Counted from the first letter of the stretch, positions 30,901 through 39,131 are shown. The stretch: DNA of 64,000 nucleotides from a virus (IMGVR_UViG_3300043446_004500:64001-128000), one strand, 5' to 3'. A program made the numbers and translations. The notes: generated from the sequence alone by a model not told the origin.

Positions 30901-31704
30901 ATGGCTGGTCCCTCTACAAGAACATATTCTGTAGCAGACTTAAAAGCAAGGTTAATGAGACCTGCTTTAACTTCTCATTATGTGTGCAGATTTCAACCTC
31001 CTCAAGATGTTGTAGAATGGATGGCAGCAAGATCTGATGCAGGTGCTTCTGGAGAAAACTATAATGATACTTTTATTCAAGAATTGATTGAAATTTCTTG
31101 TTCTGAAGCATCTTTGCCAGGATCATCACTGACTACAAACGATGTGAATGATGATTATACTGGTGTAACCCAAAAGTTTGCGTATAGAAGATTATATGAT
31201 TCTACTGCAGACTTTACTTTTTATGTTGATAATAATTACACGACTCTTAGTTTTTTTGAAGGTTGGTTGTCTTATATTGTAAGAGAAGACATAACCAGTG
31301 GAGTTCAAAATGAAAATTATTTTTATCGTGTAAGATTTCCAGAATCTTATAGAACACCTTATTTGTATATTACCAAATTTGAAAAAGATCATAACAGTCT
31401 TGAATCTGGACCATATTTGAATTATCAATTTATTGGAGCATATCCAATAAGCATTTCTTCAATGCCAGTAAATTATGATCAATCTCAATTATTAAAGTGT
31501 ACTGTTTCTTTTACTTATGATAGATATGTACTTACTAAAACTCCGTTAAGTCCACTTCAAAGAGGATTTATTCAAGATAGACTTGTTCGTGAAGATAATG
31601 CAAGAGGAGCAGCTGCAGCAGCTGCTGGACGTGGATTGGAAGAATTAAATAGAGCAAACGAAGAAGCATATTATAGAGCAAATCCTGATCAAAGACCTAA
31701 ATAA
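30901..31704 (+). CDS. tail tube initiator/tube-like protein (gp54/gp19-like)
   Basis: CSEASLPG, FTFYVD, AYPISI, CTVSFTY. Confidence 0.75.
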   Translation: MAGPSTRTYSVADLKARLMRPALTSHYVCRFQPPQDVVEWMAARSDAGASGENYNDTFIQELIEISCSEASLPGSSLTTNDVNDDYTGVTQKFAYRRLYDSTADFTFYVDNNYTTLSFFEGWLSYIVREDITSGVQNENYFYRVRFPESYRTPYLYITKFEKDHNSLESGPYLNYQFIGAYPISISSMPVNYDQSQLLKCTVSFTYDRYVLTKTPLSPLQRGFIQDRLVREDNARGAAAAAAGRGLEELNRANEEAYYRANPDQRPK

Positions 31705-31731: not shown

Positions 31732-32451
31732 ATGCCATTACCTAAGATTTCTACACCAACTTATGAACTTGAGTTGCCTTCATCTGGACAAACAATCAAG
31801 TACAGACCATTTCTAGTAAGAGAAGAAAAACTTCTGGTTCTTGCTATGGAATCGGAAGACACAAAAGAAATTACAACAGCAATTAAGGCAGTAATTAAAA
31901 ATTGTATTGAAACGAAAGGAATTAAAGTAGAGACTCTTCCTACTTTTGATATTGAATATATCTTTTTAAATATTCGTGCAAAGTCAGTTGGAGAAGATAT
32001 TGAAGTTAATATTCTCTGCCCTGATGACGAGGAAACTTCTGTTCCTGTAAAAATTAGTGTTGATGATATTAAAGTTCAAAAGAACGAAGAACACAATAAG
32101 CAGATTAAAGTAGATGACAATATTATGATGGAAATGAAATATCCATCACTTGAGCAATTTATTAAAAATAATTTTGACATCTCAAATCAAAGTAATGTTG
32201 AGCAATCTTTTGATTTAATTGCTTCTTGTATTGATAAAATTTATACTGAAGATGAAGTTTGGTCAGCATCTGATGTGACTAAAAAGGAACTTAATGAATT
32301 TCTTGATCAAATGAACTCTGTTCAATTTAAACAGATTGAAAAGTTCTTTGAAACTATGCCCAAACTATCTCATAAAATTTCAGTTACTAATCCAAATACT
32401 GGAGTTGAAAGTGAAGTTGTTCTAGAGGGTCTTTCCAGTTTTTTCGCCTAG
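31732..32451 (+). CDS. gp26: baseplate hub assembly protein gp26
   Basis: MPLPKI.TPTYELELP, YRPFLVREEK, FDIEYIFL.IRAKSVGE, FFETMPKL, LEGLSSFF. Confidence 0.9.
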   Translation: MPLPKISTPTYELELPSSGQTIKYRPFLVREEKLLVLAMESEDTKEITTAIKAVIKNCIETKGIKVETLPTFDIEYIFLNIRAKSVGEDIEVNILCPDDEETSVPVKISVDDIKVQKNEEHNKQIKVDDNIMMEMKYPSLEQFIKNNFDISNQSNVEQSFDLIASCIDKIYTEDEVWSASDVTKKELNEFLDQMNSVQFKQIEKFFETMPKLSHKISVTNPNTGVESEVVLEGLSSFFA

Positions 32452-32453
32452 GA

Positions 32454-32630
32454 ATGTCCCATATGAACTTGGAGAATTACTTCAAGTTAAACTTTGCCTT
32501 GATGCAGTATCATAAATATTCATTAACAGAGATTGAAAATATGATGCCTTGGGAAAGGGACATCTATGTGATTTTACTTCAACAGCATCTGGAAGAAGAA
32601 GAACAAAGATTAAAACAAGCAAATGGATGA
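32454..32630 (+). CDS. gp51: gp51-like baseplate assembly chaperone (58 aa, not in ORF track; -1 frame to gp26)
   Basis: NYFKLNFALMQYHKYSLTEIENMMPWERDIY. Confidence 0.85.
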   Translation: MSHMNLENYFKLNFALMQYHKYSLTEIENMMPWERDIYVILLQQHLEEEEQRLKQANG

Positions 32631-35421
32631 TCAGGATTCTAATAATCAAGTCATAACTATAGAACCTGAGATTTCTCAAATTCTTGGGTTACAGGATGAC
32701 TTTGATTTAGATCCTGATGAATATTTGCAACTTGTAAGAGAGAAGTTAGTTCAATATGATTTTTTAAGTGGTTCTAATGAAATTACAGATGAGCAAAAAG
32801 AAGAACAAAGATTATTAGCAACTAAAGTTAGAGAAATACGAGGTCAAAAAAGAGAAGGTGTTGTAAAATATAATACAGGTAAAGTAGGAAAAAAGATAAA
32901 TGTAGACTCTTTTTTTGGAAGAAAACCGGAAGAAGAACAGGATCAGAAAAAAATTACCGATCCGTCAAAACTTCTTCCTGGAACTGCTGCTAAAACAGGT
33001 GACATAATTAAATATAAATCCCAACAAGTTGAAGATTTAAAACAACCAGAAGAGAAAAAAGAAAATAAAGAAATTGCTACAATATTAAAAATATTAGATT
33101 CTATTTTAGACACATTAAAAAATAATTTTAAGTTTGATCAGAAAAAAACGGAAGTAGATAGAAAAGACAAAGAAAAGAAGAAGAGGGAAGCAAGAGAATC
33201 TAATCTTGAAAAAGGATTTGGAATGGTTAAAGGTGCCATTCAAAAAATGCTGGCACCATTTCAAAATATTCTTGATGCGATTTGGAGATATATTTTCTTT
33301 ACTTTCTTAGGTAAAATGTTTACCGATTTGATGAATTGGTTGAAAGATCCTAAGAATAAAAAGAAAATAGAAGTTATTGGTAGATTCTTAAAGGACTGGT
33401 GGCCTTTATTATTGGGTGCTTATCTTTTATTTGCATCTCCTCTTGGGTTGTTTATCAAAGGTGCAATCAAATTAATTGGAGGTTTAACTTCTCAGATTCT
33501 TAAACTTCTTCCAAGATTATTAAAACTTTCTGGAAGTTTGCTAAGAGGTGCTGCGTCTGCGGCAAGAGCTGCTGCACCACTTTTAACAAGTCCAGAAGTT
33601 GTGATTCCAGCAACGGTTTTGGGCGCTGGTGTTGTAATAAATGAACTAACAGGACAAAGAAAAGCAGCACCAGTACAAGCAGAAAATAAGGCAAGAGCAC
33701 AAACAGGAAAAGGTTTAGGTGTTCAGGGTGTTGATACTGCTGCAGAATCAAAAGCAGCAAAAGCACCAACTCCAGGAAGTATGGGTCCAACAACACCTTA
33801 TGGACTTTTGCAAGGTGTAAAACTTGGTGGAATTGTTCGTAGTCCTCGTAACATACGCAGATATACAAATGGAGCAGAAGTTGTTGAAGATGGATATAGT
33901 GGAGTAGATTCTGATACCGGAATTTCAATTACTGGTGCAGGTAAAGATACACAATTGATTGCAGCAAGACCAGGAGAAGTTGTATTAACTCCAGAGGATG
34001 CTGGACACATTCAACAAAAAACAGGATTTGATGTTTATAAATTTGTAGGAAACAGAAAACCTGGATATACTAATTTTAATAAAATTAAAACATCTGGTGG
34101 AATTTCTCTTGCAAATAAAGGAGGAATTTTAGGATTTGCTGATGGTGGTATTGTTGGAGGAAATACACCTCAACAATCAGAAAATCCAAAAATAAATTTA
34201 CCCGATTATTACTCTTTATTAGCAATATCCGCATTAGAAGATGATAAACCTCAAGGTAGAGCAGACGTTGCACAATCAATTTACAATAGATTGCTTGCAG
34301 CAAATAGGTATGGTGTTAATTTCTATCAAAGAACTAATAGTTTGAAAGATTTAATTACTGCCGGAGGAGGAAAAAAAGATGGAGGTCAATATGAACCAAC
34401 TTTTTCAAATAAGGGCGATTGGTTAAATATCAAGGATAAAAATAGTGCAGTGATTGCAATTATGAACTCCAAAAAAGGTAGAGATCATAAGTGGACTTTT
34501 AAAGATGCTATGGATCAGTTGAATGCTACAGAATCTGCTCTTAGAAATCCATCTTTACAATCATCTGCCCAAAAACATGTTGGTGGAAGAGCATATTTCT
34601 TAGGAACTTCTGAACAAAAAAATATGAAACCTGGTTCTGGTGATGTTTTAAGAGGAAAAGAATATAATTATTTTTCTCCTTGGTTTTTGGAAGGAAAACC
34701 ATACGATAAAGAAAGAAGAAATATTGCTTCTCCAATTCCTCAAATGCTATTACCTAAACCCGAATCAACATCAGGAACGGAATCTTCAAATATTTCTCAA
34801 GATAAAAATAAACAAAATCCAATTCAAAATTTTGCTTCCAATATTTTTAACTTATTTTCGTCACCACCATCAGGATTTGCAAAACCTACAAAGACTAAAC
34901 CTTCATCAAAACCACCAAAGAGATGGGCAATTGATCCTCGTGGATGGTTTGGTATGCAAGGTGGAGGTTCTATTATGCCAATAACAACTAAAATTGGAAT
35001 ACCTACATCTAAAATGAATATTGAAGCAGGTGCTGATACACAATATCTTCCTCAATACAACGTTGCAGTTCAACCTGGAGAGCAATTATTTAAATATGTA
35101 ATTCCAAAAGATGCTGCCGAAAAGGGTGCAGGAAATCAATTATTATATGCTGCAAATAAGATTATTGGAGATAAAGATTCAAATTCAAACGCAGCAAAGA
35201 TTGGAATAAGAAATAAATCCATAGGAATAAAACCATATTCATCTGGAGGATTAAATAGTAGTAATATTACTATGCTTCCTCCTATTAAAAATTCTTCAAT
35301 GAGTGGACAAGGAGTAAAAGGATCCATAAGTGGTTCTCAACATTATTCCTTTAGTCCTGTTCTAGATTCTGCTTTTGATGTTAGAAAAATGAATTGCGAT
35401 ATCTACGAAATCGTTGATTAA
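32623..35421 (+). CDS. tape-measure-like/baseplate hub protein with SleB-like hydrolase domain
   Basis: Coiled coil, hydrophobic helices, ALEDD..QGRADVAQSIYNR...GQYEP. Confidence 0.6.
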   Translation: MDDQDSNNQVITIEPEISQILGLQDDFDLDPDEYLQLVREKLVQYDFLSGSNEITDEQKEEQRLLATKVREIRGQKREGVVKYNTGKVGKKINVDSFFGRKPEEEQDQKKITDPSKLLPGTAAKTGDIIKYKSQQVEDLKQPEEKKENKEIATILKILDSILDTLKNNFKFDQKKTEVDRKDKEKKKREARESNLEKGFGMVKGAIQKMLAPFQNILDAIWRYIFFTFLGKMFTDLMNWLKDPKNKKKIEVIGRFLKDWWPLLLGAYLLFASPLGLFIKGAIKLIGGLTSQILKLLPRLLKLSGSLLRGAASAARAAAPLLTSPEVVIPATVLGAGVVINELTGQRKAAPVQAENKARAQTGKGLGVQGVDTAAESKAAKAPTPGSMGPTTPYGLLQGVKLGGIVRSPRNIRRYTNGAEVVEDGYSGVDSDTGISITGAGKDTQLIAARPGEVVLTPEDAGHIQQKTGFDVYKFVGNRKPGYTNFNKIKTSGGISLANKGGILGFADGGIVGGNTPQQSENPKINLPDYYSLLAISALEDDKPQGRADVAQSIYNRLLAANRYGVNFYQRTNSLKDLITAGGGKKDGGQYEPTFSNKGDWLNIKDKNSAVIAIMNSKKGRDHKWTFKDAMDQLNATESALRNPSLQSSAQKHVGGRAYFLGTSEQKNMKPGSGDVLRGKEYNYFSPWFLEGKPYDKERRNIASPIPQMLLPKPESTSGTESSNISQDKNKQNPIQNFASNIFNLFSSPPSGFAKPTKTKPSSKPPKRWAIDPRGWFGMQGGGSIMPITTKIGIPTSKMNIEAGADTQYLPQYNVAVQPGEQLFKYVIPKDAAEKGAGNQLLYAANKIIGDKDSNSNAAKIGIRNKSIGIKPYSSGGLNSSNITMLPPIKNSSMSGQGVKGSISGSQHYSFSPVLDSAFDVRKMNCDIYEIVD

Positions 35422-35423
35422 AG

Positions 35424-38400
35424 ATGGCAATAAACACTCAAAATTTTTTACCTTTAGCAAAATCTTCCACAGCAATTGTAAAACATGCTGGATCTCAAAT
35501 TTCTACTGAAAAGAAAGATAAAGGTGGAGCAATAATTAAGCAGAAAAAAATAGATATACAACGGTTTAGACCACCAGAAAAGCAAGAAGAAGAAAAGAAA
35601 GAAGAATCTTATGGTGCTATTGTAAAAAGTTTAATTACAATTGATAAATTCTTAAAGACAAATTCTTCATCAGAAAAGAAAACTTTTGAAAAAGATAGAT
35701 TAGAAAAAGAAAAAGAAGAATCGCAAAAAAAAGAAAAGAAATTAGAAAGTAAAGAAAGGGGAAAAGGTAAAGGAATTAATTTACCTTCAATATCATTACC
35801 CAAATTTGATTTCTTAGATGCTGTAAAACGATATTTTCTTTTTACATTTCTTGGTTGGTTATTTACTAATACTCAAAAATTTCTTCCTCAGTTAACTAAA
35901 ATTTTAGACATTATTAAACCTGTAGTAAATGCTGCCGAATTTATATTCAAAGGTTTATTAAATGGTTTTGTTACTTTTATTGAACTTGGATATAATGCAT
36001 ATGATAAGGTAAGAGATACTGTAAAGAATCTTGGTGGAGAAGGGGCTCAAAAAGTATTTGATGACCTTTCTAAAAATCTCAATACATTAATTACAACAAC
36101 GATTTTAGTTGCTGGTGCTATTGCTACTCTTGGAGAAAAAAGTAAACCTAGTGGACCAAAAGGTGGAGTTCCTGGAAGTCCAAGAGGTGGTGTTCCAAGA
36201 GGTGGTCCAAGAAGATCTCCAATTACTGGCAGACCAGTCCCAACTACAAGTGGTGGAAGAACTGCTGGTAGACCAGATATTAGAAATCCACTTAGAGAAA
36301 GACCAAGAATAACTGGAAGTGGTGGTGGTCGTGCAGGTCAAATTGATATTAGAAATCCTCTGAGACAAAGACCAGCAATAACTAGAAGTGGTGGAGAAGG
36401 AAGATTTGCAGGTAAAGGTTTAGGAAAGTTCTTGTCAAAAGGTGCTCCAATCATAGGACCACTAATTGATTTTTCAATTAGGACATTAATTTTTGGAGAA
36501 TCTCCTGGTCGTGCTGCAGCTGGTGCTATAGGTGCTGGAGTAGGACAAGCATTGGGTGGTGTTTTAGTTGGAACAATTGGAGGAATCGTTGGAAGTGTAA
36601 TTCCAATTGCTGGTACTCTTTTGGGAGGATCTGCAGGTGCTTTTGTCGGACAATTGATTGGTGGATTTGTTGGAGATTGGATAGGAACTTCTTTATATGA
36701 TGCAGTGGCATCAATGAAAGATAAGAAAAAAATTGAGAAAAAAGAGACTGGTGGAAAAGTATCACCAAAAACAAGAGTTAAAGGAAAGAAAAACTCTAAA
36801 AGATCAATTAAAGTTGCTTCAAAGAGACATCCAAAAATAACACCACAAGTATCTCAACCTGGTAAAGATGTTGGTGGAGAGAAAAATATTAAGGTATTGT
36901 ATCCAGATCCAGACAAAAAAATGTCTTTGGATGAATTTCTTATAAGTGAAATGGGTCAGGGTTCATATTCATATAGTCAATATGAAAATGACTTTAAGAA
37001 AAGAACAAAAAAACCAAATCCATTTAAAGCACTCACAGCAACTGCAAAAATATTAAAAGAAATTCCATTATTTGGTGGCACGATTGGTTCAATAATGGGG
37101 GCAGGTGTTGATATTGCATTGGGACAGAAACCTGACAAAAAAGTATATCAGTCAATTGCATCAGGAATTGGTTTTCTTGTTGACACTCTATCAGATCAAA
37201 GAGTTAATAAAAGTATGGGTTCTTTGATGTCTCAAATTAGAGGATTTGCTGAAGGTGGAACAGTTCCTACAAGAGAATTAAAATTAGGAGATGATACTAC
37301 AAATACTACTAAATTACTTACAAAAATTATTGAACCTGCAATAAGTCAAAAAGTAAATCAGGCATTTCAAAGTATTCAAAAAGAATTGCAATTAAAAGGT
37401 AAAAAAGAACCTGGTCAACCTGGTGGAGGTCAACCTGGTGGAGGTGGACCTGGTGGTGGAGGAGGACCTTCAGTAGAATCTATTGATATGAATGGATTAA
37501 GTAAAGAAGATGTTGATGCATTAGGTAGAATGGTTCAAGCAGAAGCAGGTAATCAATCTGCCGCAGGAAAGGCATCCGTAATGAACGTTATACTTAACAG
37601 ATATCGTTTAGCAAAAGCAGGTAAAGGATATCTTCCCTCAGGTAAAACTAAAGATACCGTAACAATAAGAGATATTCTTTATGATCCAAATCAATTTTCT
37701 CCTATTGATGATGGCAGATTTGATAGAACTTCATCGGCTGCCGGCAGAAGTGCATTAGCACAAGCAATTTCTGCTGGTGGAAATGATCCAGAAAAACTTA
37801 AAAAAGTTTTAATGGAAAAATATAATTTGAATGAGCAAGATGCAAATTATGTTATAGTTTCAACTGTTTTTTCCAATCCAGAAGCTAGAGGTTCTAGACC
37901 TTTTAATACTAGAGAAGTTACCGTAGGTGATCACACTTTCCAAGAATCTCCTGATGCAAGATTAAGAGCTCCTGGTCAAAAAATTGATGCTACAGTTAAG
38001 GAAACTCCATCACTAATAATTAAAGGTGGTCCAATTAAAGGTGGAGCAATAGTAACTCAAAGAGGAGATCCTGATAACGAACAAACTGGATCAGATATTG
38101 CAGTTGGTAATTATCAAGTGGGAGATCAAATTCAAAATCCTTTCCAAAGTTTAAAAATCACTAAAATAGGTTTTCAGGGAAAGGGGTCTGGAGAATCTGG
38201 ACAAGGATTTGGTAGATATGTAACAGGTGAAACAATTATTAATGGAAAGAGATATGAAATTTTATTGGGACACTTAAATAAAGCACTTGTAAAAGAAGGA
38301 GACATTTTAGAAGCAGGTGATGTTATTGGAACCCAAGGAATTTCTGGACATGCAACTGGTCCTCATGTTTCAACTCACATTAATGCTTTAGATGGTGGAG

Positions 38401-39131
38401 ATCCATCAAAGGTATTATCATCTGTAGAAAATGTTTGGACAAGAGGTGGTGCGATTGAAACAAAGTCTATGGGAAGACCAACATCTCAATCACAACCACC
38501 AAAAGCACCACCCGGACAAACTCCAGGTAGAACGGGCACAGAACTTGCCGAAGAAATGGAACTACTTCAAAAACCAGTAGTAGAATCATTTAAAGTTGGA
38601 AGTGATACCTATACTCATAGGCAAGGCGGAGTATATACAAAAAATGGAAAGAGAATAAACAAAGATGAATTTGATAAATCTAAAGGATCTCAAGGACAAG
38701 GAAACTGGTGGTCAAATCTTTTTGGTCAAAACAAACCAACACCATCAGCAAAAGTAGAAGGAATAATAAATCATAATGGACAAACTTATTATAGACAAGG
38801 CGACAAATACTTTAAAAAACCTGGACCAGGAGAAGACATCATACAAATACCTAAATCCATTTACGATACGGTTTTAAGAGCAGAAACAATACAAGCACGT
38901 GGTAATCTTCAAGGTGGTGGTTTGATAGGGAAACCAAAATCAAAATTACCAATACCAAATAAGTTTGCCTCTTATGAAAACTATGGTCAGCAATCAATGA
39001 TTGCTATTCTTCCAATTCAAACAGAAGTTATGGTTCCTGTTCCTACAGATGGTGGAGGACCTATGATGTTCCCATCAGCAAATCTAAATACAAAAGATTC
39101 TCACAAAATTCATAGTCTAAGTAGGGGATAA
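35424..39131 (+). CDS. tape-measure-like protein with Hydrolase_2 (SleB) and M23 peptidase domains
   Basis: Glycine-zipper helices; LGRMVQAEAG..VMNVILNR..QFSP; GHL....VKEGD...GDVIG.QG.SGHATGPH. Confidence 0.7.
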   Translation: MAINTQNFLPLAKSSTAIVKHAGSQISTEKKDKGGAIIKQKKIDIQRFRPPEKQEEEKKEESYGAIVKSLITIDKFLKTNSSSEKKTFEKDRLEKEKEESQKKEKKLESKERGKGKGINLPSISLPKFDFLDAVKRYFLFTFLGWLFTNTQKFLPQLTKILDIIKPVVNAAEFIFKGLLNGFVTFIELGYNAYDKVRDTVKNLGGEGAQKVFDDLSKNLNTLITTTILVAGAIATLGEKSKPSGPKGGVPGSPRGGVPRGGPRRSPITGRPVPTTSGGRTAGRPDIRNPLRERPRITGSGGGRAGQIDIRNPLRQRPAITRSGGEGRFAGKGLGKFLSKGAPIIGPLIDFSIRTLIFGESPGRAAAGAIGAGVGQALGGVLVGTIGGIVGSVIPIAGTLLGGSAGAFVGQLIGGFVGDWIGTSLYDAVASMKDKKKIEKKETGGKVSPKTRVKGKKNSKRSIKVASKRHPKITPQVSQPGKDVGGEKNIKVLYPDPDKKMSLDEFLISEMGQGSYSYSQYENDFKKRTKKPNPFKALTATAKILKEIPLFGGTIGSIMGAGVDIALGQKPDKKVYQSIASGIGFLVDTLSDQRVNKSMGSLMSQIRGFAEGGTVPTRELKLGDDTTNTTKLLTKIIEPAISQKVNQAFQSIQKELQLKGKKEPGQPGGGQPGGGGPGGGGGPSVESIDMNGLSKEDVDALGRMVQAEAGNQSAAGKASVMNVILNRYRLAKAGKGYLPSGKTKDTVTIRDILYDPNQFSPIDDGRFDRTSSAAGRSALAQAISAGGNDPEKLKKVLMEKYNLNEQDANYVIVSTVFSNPEARGSRPFNTREVTVGDHTFQESPDARLRAPGQKIDATVKETPSLIIKGGPIKGGAIVTQRGDPDNEQTGSDIAVGNYQVGDQIQNPFQSLKITKIGFQGKGSGESGQGFGRYVTGETIINGKRYEILLGHLNKALVKEGDILEAGDVIGTQGISGHATGPHVSTHINALDGGDPSKVLSSVENVWTRGGAIETKSMGRPTSQSQPPKAPPGQTPGRTGTELAEEMELLQKPVVESFKVGSDTYTHRQGGVYTKNGKRINKDEFDKSKGSQGQGNWWSNLFGQNKPTPSAKVEGIINHNGQTYYRQGDKYFKKPGPGEDIIQIPKSIYDTVLRAETIQARGNLQGGGLIGKPKSKLPIPNKFASYENYGQQSMIAILPIQTEVMVPVPTDGGGPMMFPSANLNTKDSHKIHSLSRG

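What the first reader, a model, noticed from the sequence alone, without database searches (positions are those of the whole stretch)
32420..32630. gp26/gp51 look like a lambda G/GT-style -1 frameshift chaperone pair in a T4-like phage
Seen: gp26 ends AGT TTT TTC GCC TAG, giving an in-phase T_TTT_TTC heptamer (32439-32445). The 58-aa gp51 ORF is in the -1 frame and open from the slip site (FF-RLGMSHMNLENY...), which gives a ~299-aa fusion. SD-like AGAGGG lies 9 nt upstream, a 9-bp hairpin lies at 32466-32488, and the pair directly precedes the tape-measure-like genes. Established: frameshifted tail-assembly chaperones upstream of tape measure genes are conserved in lambda (G/GT), P2 and Mu. 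Inference, partly from memory: T4 gp51 resembles a gp26-like N-terminus plus this C-terminal domain, so T4 may hard-wire the long form while cyanophages make it by recoding. This would extend the G/GT rule to T4-like myoviruses.
Basis: partly seen in the sequence, partly recalled or inferred. Interest (0 to 1): 0.82.

Follow-up and report, generated by a model that had tools for sequence, protein, structure and literature searches.

The report
Frameshift in baseplate-hub chaperone gene
One tail-assembly gene of this T4-like cyanophage very probably makes a 239-residue and a 299-residue protein because some ribosomes slip back one base on a strictly conserved TTTTTTC; phage T4 makes the same pair from two separate genes (26 and 51).

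Summary
gp26 (31732-32451, PF12322) ends AGT TTT TTC GCC TAG, with T_TTT_TTC in phase at 32439-32445. The 58-aa gp51-like ORF lies in the -1 frame, which is open from 32415. A slip gives a 299-aa product.

One TTTTTTC means nothing in this AT-rich window (52 found, 51 expected). Conservation carries the case:
- All 166 related loci that could be read keep an in-phase T_TTT_TTN with the gp51-like domain in the -1 frame. They run from cyanophages to KVP40, phiAS5, PhiW-14 and YB07.
- In 61 close relatives, only the two slip-site Phe codons are invariant among 136 conserved degenerate codon columns.
- In 41 of 116 unique junctions, the first ATG lies inside the conserved domain.
- T4 gp51 is a gp26-like domain plus this C-terminal domain, and it aligns gap-free across the junction.
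- Phages with a separate gp51 have no heptamer.
- The gp26 N-domain model best matches tail assembly chaperones (HK97 2ob9, Z 7.7).

The hairpin at 32466-32488 is real but not conserved. No protein data exist, and I found no published report. This scan has noted the same slip in at least 245 other genomes. Verdict: first reading supported; a new member of the G/GT-type chaperone frameshift.

The parts
30901..31704 (+). Tail-tube-fold gene (267 aa) directly upstream. It is annotated 'gp19 duplicated' in KVP40 and 'tail tube initiator' in phiAS5.
   Evidence: PF23849 Phage_TTP_2 E 3.6e-17; phrog_45 'tail tube' E 4.9e-34; same position in KVP40 and phiAS5.
31732..32451 (+). gp26-like gene. The 0-frame product is 239 aa and is the short form (the G equivalent).
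   Evidence: PF12322 T4_baseplate E 6.3e-79; phrog_150 E 3.9e-84. The AF2 model has pLDDT above 90 over this part. Residues 1-90 best match tail assembly chaperones.
32424..32429 (+). SD-like AGAGGG, with 9 nt between it and the heptamer. It is a possible dnaX-type upstream stimulator.
   Evidence: Sequence. An SD-like 4-mer lies 5-18 nt upstream in 91% of 117 unique junctions, against 18% of background windows in the same genes. This is confounded by a conserved Gly codon.
32439..32445 (+). Slippery heptamer T_TTT_TTC (Phe237-Phe238 of gp26), the proposed site of the tandem -1 slip.
   Evidence: invariant in phase in all 166 readable loci (TTC 88, TTT 22, TTA 6 among 116 unique junctions).
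32449..32451 (+). TAG stop of the 0 frame, one codon after the heptamer.
   Evidence: In relatives the stop lies 0, 1, 2 or 8 codons after the heptamer.
32445..32630 (+). -1-frame extension: 61 aa (RLGMSHMNLENYFK...QANG) plus a TGA stop. Base 32445 is read twice. Long form = 31732-32445 joined to 32445-32627, 299 aa.
   Evidence: Homologous to the C-terminal ~48 aa of T4 gp51. Alignment A3 shows seven invariant residues: F17, H23, S26, P35, E37, Y41 and L45.
32454..32630 (+). The gp51-like ORF as usually annotated (58 aa, from ATG 32454; a second ATG lies at 32463).
   Evidence: phrog_634 'baseplate hub assembly catalyst' E 3e-28. It also matches positions 240-281 of phrog_150, E 2.4e-5.
32466..32488 (+). 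9-bp hairpin, present in this phage only. Probably not a frameshift stimulator.
   Evidence: -9.3 kcal/mol, 20 nt after the heptamer, RNAalifold consensus empty over 57 unique relatives; downstream MFE z-score averages -1.3.
32623..35421 (+). 932-aa gene whose ATG overlaps the end of the -1 ORF (ATGGATGA). It sits where the gp29-type tape measure is expected.
   Evidence: No Pfam family; phrog_35029 only. In KVP40, phiAS5, OC and YB07 a protein of 620-660 aa follows.
35424..39131 (+). 1235-aa protein with tape-measure-like stretches, an M23 peptidase domain and a cell-wall hydrolase domain.
   Evidence: PF01551 and PF07486; phrog_794, phrog_10030 and phrog_23574 'tape measure', and phrog_1047 'tail associated lysin'.

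Best explanation
This is a programmed -1 ribosomal frameshift at the 3' end of the baseplate-hub assembly chaperone gene.

Mechanism. Most ribosomes read ...Ser-Phe-Phe-Ala-stop and release the 239-aa gp26-like protein. A minority slip while tRNA-Phe occupies UUU in the P site and UUC in the A site of U_UUU_UUC (32439-32445). Both tRNAs re-pair one base back on UUU_UUU, and decoding continues in the -1 frame (Arg-Leu-Gly-Met-Ser-His...) to TGA at 32628-32630. This gives a 299-aa protein: the gp26 domain plus a 61-aa helical C-terminal domain.

Relation to T4. The two products correspond to T4 gp26 (short) and T4 gp51 (long). T4 and its closest relatives encode these as two paralogous genes.

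Function. By fold, gene position and two-form logic, the pair works like lambda gpG/gpGT. The shared chaperone body would hold the tape-measure/hub proteins, and the rare long form would add a domain that recruits a further assembly partner.

What is shown: the sequence anatomy, the conservation, the homology to T4 gp26/gp51 and the fold match. What is inferred: that the slip happens in vivo, its rate, and the binding partners.
For: 1. Anatomy. The heptamer is in phase and the -1 frame is open from 32415 to 32630.

2. Conservation of the slip site.
- 80 close IMG/VR loci plus S-BM3 all keep T TTT TTC.
- 80 loci of 36-94% identity keep T_TTT_TTC/T/A, always with the gp51-like domain in the -1 frame.
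- The same holds for KVP40, phiAS5, Ochrobactrum OC, YB07, PhiW-14, LPCS28 and LG08.

3. Codon-level constraint. Among 136 conserved degenerate codon columns in 61 unique ORFs, only 2 are invariant: Phe237 TTT and Phe238 TTC. Ser236 is AGT or TCT only, while Ser235 uses TCA, TCG, TCC and TCT.

4. Where the heptamer is TTT TTA, the 0 frame reads Phe-Leu but the -1 frame still reads Phe-Phe. The last 0-frame residue varies (A, E, V, S, G, I) while the overlapping -1 codon stays Arg. This points to selection on the -1 reading.

5. No start codon. In 41 of 116 unique junctions the first ATG is at least 20 codons in. In some loci a -1-frame stop lies immediately 5' of the heptamer.

6. T4 comparison. 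T4 gp51 and gp26 both match PF12322, and only gp51 carries the C-domain. The fusions align gap-free with gp51, and T4 gp26 ends at the same point (EFFELL*).

7. Controls. T4, Erwinia IT22, Acinetobacter DP45, the RB49-like phage 011D4 and Aeromonas B614 have a separate 248-256-aa gp51. None has a heptamer (T4: TTC TTT) or a -1 domain after gp26.

8. Tree. T4-type gp26 and gp51 form one clade (support 96/98), apart from all single-gene forms.

9. Fold. Out of 48,161 chains, the N-domain's top matches are the HK97 tail assembly chaperone 2ob9 (Z 7.7, 85 residues aligned, rmsd 3.9), 3fgx (Z 7.4) and YqbN 3klu (Z 7.1). The best unrelated chain scores 4.3. Foldseek gives the same order.

10. Sullivan et al. 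2010 (PMC3037559) recorded, without explaining it, that cyanophage and vibriophage gp51 lack the first ~200 residues.
Against: - No protein, ribosome-profiling or reporter data exist.
- In this phage gp51 has ATGs at 32454 and 32463, and AGGA lies 9 nt before the second. Some independent initiation is therefore possible here.
- No conserved downstream stimulatory structure was found.
- The SD-like element upstream is confounded by coding constraint.
- The fold match has Z below 8 and Foldseek E 0.16. It is convincing through its ranking and its gap to the next hits, not through its score.
- The first downstream gene has no recognisable tape-measure family.
- One TTTTTTC is not unusual in this genome.
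Confidence: 0.85

Rival explanations
1. There is no frameshift. The small ORF is translated on its own, by termination-reinitiation or a weak SD, as a free ~58-aa 'mini-gp51'. The T-run is kept only because Phe-Phe is needed at the gp26 C-terminus.
For: The window has ATGs at 32454 and 32463, with AGGA at 32450-32453. 75 of 116 unique junctions have an ATG within 11 codons of the heptamer. Databases annotate it this way.
Against: - A need for Phe-Phe does not explain invariant TTT TTC plus a T-ending preceding codon, when the ten other conserved Phe columns mix their codons.
- It does not explain TTT TTA, which reads Phe-Leu in the 0 frame.
- 41 of 116 junctions, and phiAS5 and OC, have no start before the middle of the conserved domain.
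- The residues between the heptamer and the ATG (R-L/I) are conserved and align with K-L of T4 gp51.
- T4 FF is TTC TTT.
Confidence: 0.07
2. The long form is made by transcriptional slippage. RNA polymerase adds one U at the T6 run, and standard translation then reads through into the gp51 frame.
For: The conserved element is a homopolymer run (T6-T8). Its product would be identical to the -1 ribosomal product. Some relatives have T7-T8.
Against: - From my own knowledge, efficient slippage usually needs runs of about 9 or more.
- The phase of the run relative to the 0 frame is strictly fixed (first T always at codon position 3). Ribosomal slippage requires this; polymerase slippage does not.
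- accepted a T-run only where it opens a -1 ORF behind a long ORF one base further on, so that fixed phase is partly built into the search.
- The check made without that filter is the codon alignment.
- No RNA reads could be examined.
Confidence: 0.05
3. It is a split or decaying gene: an ancestral full-length gp51 broken by a 1-nt deletion, with the downstream piece drifting.
For: Rare 301-302-aa fused ORFs exist in ENA metagenomes.
Against: - The same break at the same base recurs across at least five viral families.
- The C-domain is under strong purifying selection: seven residues are invariant in A3.
- The fused ORFs are singletons, and 119 of 119 genuine IMG/VR matches to the tested flank are T6.
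- About 5,200 representative proteins (50% clusters) matched at E<=0.001; nearly all of the 150 best stop at the FF.
Confidence: 0.01

Closest known systems
Lambda gpG/gpGT and the conserved -1 frameshift of tail assembly chaperone genes in long-tailed phages (Levin, Hendrix & Casjens 1993; Xu, Hendrix & Duda 2004, 2013, 2014, as summarised in PMC5009743)
   Same: - Two overlapping ORFs, with the second in the -1 frame and without a dependable start.
- A heptamer near the end of the first ORF.
- Short and long forms that share the chaperone body.
- A position between a tube-fold gene and the long tape-measure-position genes.
- A chaperone-type fold for the N-domain (HK97 chaperone 2ob9 is the top hit).
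   Different: - No sequence membership in a chaperone Pfam family; the gene belongs to PF12322.
- The protein is larger (239 aa), with about 150 extra residues after the chaperone-like domain.
- The extension is short (61 aa).
- The slip site is U_UUU_UUC, not lambda's G_GGA_AAG (the latter from memory).
- In T4 the pair acts in baseplate-hub assembly.
- The binding partners are untested.
Phage T4 gp26 (208 aa) and gp51 (249 aa), hub assembly chaperones (Leiman et al. 2010, PMC3004832)
   Same: Direct homologues. The window's gp26 and both T4 proteins match PF12322. The -1 extension is homologous to the last ~48 residues of gp51. Leiman et al. 2010 state that gp51 is required for baseplate assembly but is absent from the final particle.
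   Different: T4 encodes the two forms as divergently transcribed paralogous genes, with no slippery site (FF = TTC TTT). Here one gene plus recoding gives both. The tree places the duplication inside the T4-type lineage.
E. coli dnaX tau/gamma -1 frameshift (from my own knowledge)
   Same: A tandem -1 slip on a heptamer, with an SD-like element about 10 nt upstream. GAGG ends 10 nt before the heptamer here, and the element is enriched in relatives.
   Different: dnaX also uses a strong downstream hairpin, and its slip shortens the product. Here no conserved hairpin was found, and the slip lengthens the product.

Membership tests
T4 gp26/gp51 family (Pfam PF12322 T4_baseplate; phrog_150) | Full-length match to the family profile above the curated cut-off | tested here: met
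   E 6.3e-79, 265 bits against a cut-off of 24.5, residues 9-239 on profile positions 2-219; phrog_150 E 3.9e-84.
T4 gp51 long form | A gp26-like body followed by the conserved C-terminal domain (phrog_634; ...NF.LMQHHKYSL.E...PWER..Y) | tested here: met
   Met only through the -1 reading. The small ORF matches phrog_634 at E 3e-28 and phrog_150 positions 240-281. T4 gp51 residues 147-246 match phrog_634. The alignment is gap-free across the junction.
G/GT-type frameshifted tail assembly chaperone | Second ORF in the -1 frame, overlapping the end of the first, with an in-phase X_XXY_YYZ heptamer | tested here: met
G/GT-type frameshifted tail assembly chaperone | Slip site and frame relation conserved among diverged relatives, despite synonymous change elsewhere | tested here: met
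.
G/GT-type frameshifted tail assembly chaperone | Located between the tail tube gene and the tape measure gene | tested here: inconclusive
   The upstream gene has a tube fold (PF23849). The next gene (932 aa) has no family, and BLASTP finds no similarity to the KVP40 counterpart. The gene after it has tape-measure-like phrog hits. In KVP40 and phiAS5 the order is tube-like, gp26, -1 ORF, ~620-660-aa protein, gp3.
G/GT-type frameshifted tail assembly chaperone | Chaperone fold (HK97 gp10-type / XkdN-YqbN-type) | tested here: inconclusive
   By VIA-align, the top three of 48,161 chains are 2ob9 (Z 7.7, rmsd 3.9, 85 aligned), 3fgx (Z 7.4) and 3klu (Z 7.1); the next unrelated chain scores 4.3. 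Foldseek gives the same ranking, but with E 0.16 and prob 0.87. The ranking is clear; the scores are below the tool's safe threshold of 8.
G/GT-type frameshifted tail assembly chaperone | Both products made in vivo at a fixed ratio, and both required for tail assembly | not testable with these tools
G/GT-type frameshifted tail assembly chaperone | The G part binds the tape measure; the T part binds the tube protein | not tested
Alignments A3 and A4 had been prepared for it.
dnaX-type stimulated -1 frameshift | Functional SD-like stimulator 10-14 nt upstream and a hairpin 5-9 nt downstream | tested here: inconclusive
   An SD-like 4-mer is present in 91% of junctions against 18% of background windows, but it overlaps a conserved Gly codon. 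No conserved hairpin was found.

The most novel reading that the evidence does not exclude
gp26/gp51 is the T4-superfamily version of the tail assembly chaperone frameshift found in other long-tailed phages. On this reading:
- The single recoded gene is the ancestral state across Kyanoviridae, many Straboviridae and several other large myoviruses.
- The T4-type lineage duplicated the gene and hard-wired the long form as gene 51.
- The long-known 'catalytic' need for gp51 reflects the low-abundance GT-like form. Its 60-residue domain would recruit a tube-fold or hub partner to the chaperone/tape-measure complex.
Probability: 0.5. Interest if true: 0.8.

Novelty: new member of a known kind. Interest (0 to 1): 0.7.

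Why it matters
- It gives a concrete, testable function for T4 gp51. Leiman et al. [quoted passage not shown]
- It explains why cyanophage and vibriophage 'gp51' appear to lack the first 200 residues (PMC3037559).
- It ties the T4 hub chaperones to the chaperone frameshift of other long-tailed phages.
- It would correct the annotation in over a thousand sequenced phages. The -1 ORF is currently called a free 40-60-aa protein, is started inside its conserved domain (phiAS5, OC), or is missed altogether (LPCS28, SFP10, 3M).
- The ratio of short to long form may be a tuning point for tail assembly in abundant marine viruses.

Tried and rejected
- **Downstream stimulator.** The window's hairpin is not conserved.
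- **PDB by sequence.** Nothing was found.
- **Foldseek on the whole 301-aa model against PDB.** Nothing below E 0.4. Only the domain-wise and VIA-align searches surfaced the chaperones.
- **BFVD.** It returned only gp26-type 'baseplate hub' proteins.
- **Downstream gene.** BLASTP of the 932-aa protein against the KVP40 counterpart found no similarity.
- **Fused ORFs.** The natural fused ORFs (P0002-P0004) are singletons, so I treat them as probable indel errors.
- **T5/T7 variants.** A length-tolerant pattern scan of IMG/VR found none. The one non-T match (L236) is an unrelated chance hit.
- **More loci from IMG/VR.** Queries with KVP40, PhiW-14 and T4 gp26 returned too few loci to add statistics.
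- **PF28602.** This label appears in the precomputed annotations of the C-domain but is not in the local Pfam.
- **Literature.** The searches and the recoding review gave no report of a gp26/gp51 frameshift. The library lacks most subscription journals, so an existing report cannot be excluded.

Full report
**What is in the sequence**

The + strand carries a 239-aa ORF at 31732..32451. It ends AGT TTT TTC GCC TAG. It is a full-length member of Pfam PF12322 'T4_baseplate' (E 6.3e-79) and of phrog_150 'baseplate hub'.

T_TTT_TTC lies at 32439-32445, in phase with that ORF. The -1 frame is open from 32415 to TGA at 32628-32630. It contains the 58-aa ORF 32454..32630, which matches phrog_634 'baseplate hub assembly catalyst' (E 3e-28). 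That ORF also matches the C-terminal positions 240-281 of phrog_150 (E 2.4e-5), the gp26 family itself.

A tandem -1 slip would give 238 + 61 = 299 residues reading ...LEGLSSFF|RLGMSHMNLENYFK....

A single TTTTTTC proves nothing here. The window holds 52 of them, against 51 expected from shuffles.

**Conservation**

- Eighty IMG/VR loci with 79-87% identical gp26, plus Synechococcus phage S-BM3 (50%), all keep T TTT TTC in phase, with gp51 in the -1 frame.
- A second set of 80 loci at 36-94% identity to S-BM3 gp26 keeps T_TTT_TTC, T_TTT_TTT or T_TTT_TTA at the aligned position. This holds although the 0-frame stop sits 0, 1, 2 or 8 codons further on.
- In all, 166 of 170 loci show the signal, and the other four run off their contigs. 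There are 116 unique junctions: 88 TTC, 22 TTT and 6 TTA.
- The codon that supplies the first T is always NNT: AGT 55, GAT 39, TCT 13, AAT 6, GCT 2 and ACT 1.
- In 61 unique close ORFs, 136 codon columns have a conserved amino acid with degenerate codons. Only two of these are invariant at the nucleotide level, Phe237 TTT and Phe238 TTC. The ten other conserved Phe columns all mix TTT and TTC.
- A length-tolerant pattern scan found T6 in 119 of 119 genuine matches. The one other hit is an unrelated region.

**The -1 reading is the one under selection at the junction**

- With TTT TTA the 0 frame reads Phe-Leu, but the -1 frame still reads Phe-Phe.
- The last 0-frame residue varies (Ala, Glu, Val, Ser, Gly, Ile), while the overlapping -1 codon is nearly always Arg.
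- In some loci a -1-frame stop lies immediately 5' of the heptamer, so the open -1 frame starts exactly at the slip site.
- In 41 of 116 unique junctions the first ATG is at least 20 codons into the -1 ORF, inside the conserved domain.
- In Aeromonas phage phiAS5 and Ochrobactrum phage OC, the annotated small ORF starts in the middle of that domain.

**Breadth**

The same layout is found in these phages:

| Phage | Taxon |
|---|---|
| Vibrio phage KVP40 | Schizotequatrovirus |
| phiAS5 | Chrysonvirus |
| Cronobacter phage LPCS28 | Nanhuvirus |
| Stenotrophomonas phage YB07 | Menderavirus |
| Delftia phage PhiW-14 | Ionavirus |
| Rhizobium phage LG08 | not assigned below Caudoviricetes |
| Ochrobactrum phage OC | Kyanoviridae |

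In each, gp26 ends D/S-F-F-x-stop on T_TTT_TTY, and a -1 ORF of about 56-63 aa follows.

**T4**

T4 genes 26 (208 aa) and 51 (249 aa) are divergently transcribed. Both products match PF12322: gp26 over 1-206 and gp51 over 1-201. Only gp51 continues to the end of phrog_150 (positions 13-280) and matches phrog_634.

In a MAFFT alignment, the conceptual fusions of seven phages align with T4 gp51 without a gap across the junction (SFF-RLGM against DVF-KLLV). T4 gp26 ends at the same point (EFFELL*).

T4 FF is encoded TTC TTT, which is not slippery, and the -1 frame closes at once.

Four further phages carry a separate 248-256-aa gp51: Acinetobacter DP45, the RB49-like phage 011D4, Aeromonas B614 and Erwinia IT22. 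None has a heptamer or a -1 domain after gp26; gene 25 follows instead. In this sample, heptamer plus -1 domain and a separate gene 51 are mutually exclusive.

A maximum-likelihood tree puts T4-type gp26 and gp51 in one clade (support 96/98), apart from all single-gene forms. gp51 is monophyletic within that clade (100/100). This fits a duplication inside the T4-type lineage. The root was not determined, so 'recoding is ancestral' is an inference from distribution.

**Fold**

An AlphaFold2 model of a natural fused singleton (P0002, used as a stand-in for the long form) has mean pLDDT 89. The gp26 body is above 90, and the extension is three helices at 63-82.

Foldseek on the whole model found nothing in the PDB. 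VIA-align against 48,161 representative chains ranked these three first:

| Chain | Protein | Z |
|---|---|---|
| 2ob9 | HK97 tail assembly chaperone | 7.6 |
| 3fgx | uncharacterised protein rbstp2171 (Bacillus stearothermophilus) | 7.5 |
| 3klu | YqbN | 7.2 |

All three matched on residues 1-90.

A separate model of residues 1-100 (pLDDT 89) gave the same three at Z 7.7, 7.4 and 7.1, with 83-86 residues aligned. The first unrelated chain scored 4.3, and lactococcal p2 ORF12 scored 3.1. Foldseek on this domain also ranked 2ob9, 3fgx, 5ir0 and 3klu on top, but with E 0.16-1.1.

The scores are below the tool's safe level. The ranking, the coverage and the gap to the next hits still make a chaperone-type N-domain likely. 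I record the membership feature as inconclusive.

**Possible stimulators**

The 9-bp hairpin 32466-32488 exists (-9.3 kcal/mol). It starts 20 nt after the heptamer and has no counterpart in 57 unique relatives. Across 117 junctions the downstream 55 nt are only mildly structured (mean z -1.3).

An SD-like 4-mer lies 5-18 nt upstream in 91% of junctions, against 18% of control windows. The spacing here (GAGG ending 10 nt before the heptamer) is dnaX-like. However, the element overlaps a conserved Gly codon, so I treat it as suggestive only.

**Context**

Upstream lies a tube-fold gene (PF23849). Downstream, a 932-aa gene overlaps the end of the -1 ORF, and a 1235-aa protein with tape-measure-like stretches, M23 and hydrolase domains follows.

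In KVP40 and phiAS5 the order is tube-like gene, gp26, -1 ORF, a protein of ~620-660 aa, then gp3. The long proteins share no detectable sequence similarity. 'Tape measure' is therefore an inference from position.

**Literature and earlier notes**

- Sullivan et al. 2010 recorded that cyanophage and marine vibriophage gp51 lack the first ~200 residues, and gave no explanation.
- Leiman et al. 2010 list gp26 and gp51 as hub assembly chaperones. [quoted passage not shown]
- The large recoding review describes lambda G/GT but mentions neither baseplate nor cyanophage.
- Eight full-text searches found no report of this slip. The library lacks most subscription journals.
- This scan has noted the same gp26/gp51 slip in at least 245 other genomes, with follow-ups reaching the same reading. 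I did not count those notes as evidence.

**Verdict**

The most likely mechanism is a tandem -1 ribosomal slip on U_UUU_UUC that gives short and long forms of a chaperone-type hub assembly protein (confidence 0.85). It is not shown at the protein level. Independent initiation of the small ORF may add to it in this particular phage.

Noticed in passing
L087:3220-3405 (Salmonella phage SFP10); L304:1869-2072 (Serratia phage 3M): These Ackermannviridae have an unannotated -1-frame gp51-like ORF after gp26. It has no ATG and no X_XXY_YYZ heptamer, only an in-phase T_TTC tetramer (ATT TTC / GTT TTC). VAP7 and K476 have an ATG overlapping the stop. This may be a tetramer-type slip, or another route to the same domain.
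   Followed up: partly
L182:2148-2345 (Cronobacter phage LPCS28); L083:3208-3390 (phiAS5); L084:3187-3396 (Ochrobactrum phage OC): The -1 ORF is not annotated in LPCS28. In phiAS5 and OC it is annotated from a start codon inside the conserved domain. The current records are probably wrong.
   Followed up: yes
proteins P0002, P0003, P0004, P0012, P0038 (ENA metagenomes): These are singleton fused ORFs of 301-357 aa that read ...SFFRLGM... They could be indel errors at or near the T-run, or rare hard-wired variants.
   Followed up: partly
window 32623-32630: The ATG of the 932-aa gene overlaps the stop of the -1 ORF (ATGGATGA). Ribosomes that finish the long form, or a free gp51, could couple into the next gene.
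   Followed up: no
window 32380-32400 against L082, L083, L085, L086 and T4 gp26 (alignment): KVP40, phiAS5, YB07, PhiW-14 and T4 gp26 carry a CPxCG motif near the C-terminus, and a Cys pair earlier, which looks like a zinc ribbon. The window and S-BM3 have NPNTG/NPETG instead. The cyanophage clade seems to have lost the Cys ligands.
   Followed up: no
precomputed annotation of P0002-P0051: The C-domain carries a Pfam label, PF28602, that is absent from the local Pfam copy. A curated family for this domain seems to exist, under a name I could not read.
   Followed up: partly
window 35424-39131: This 1235-aa protein combines tape-measure-like stretches, Gly/Pro-rich repeats, a cell-wall hydrolase domain (PF07486) and an M23 peptidase domain (PF01551). 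It follows a 932-aa protein of no known family, so two very long genes sit where T4 has gp29 alone.
   Followed up: no
I did not examine it.
   Followed up: no
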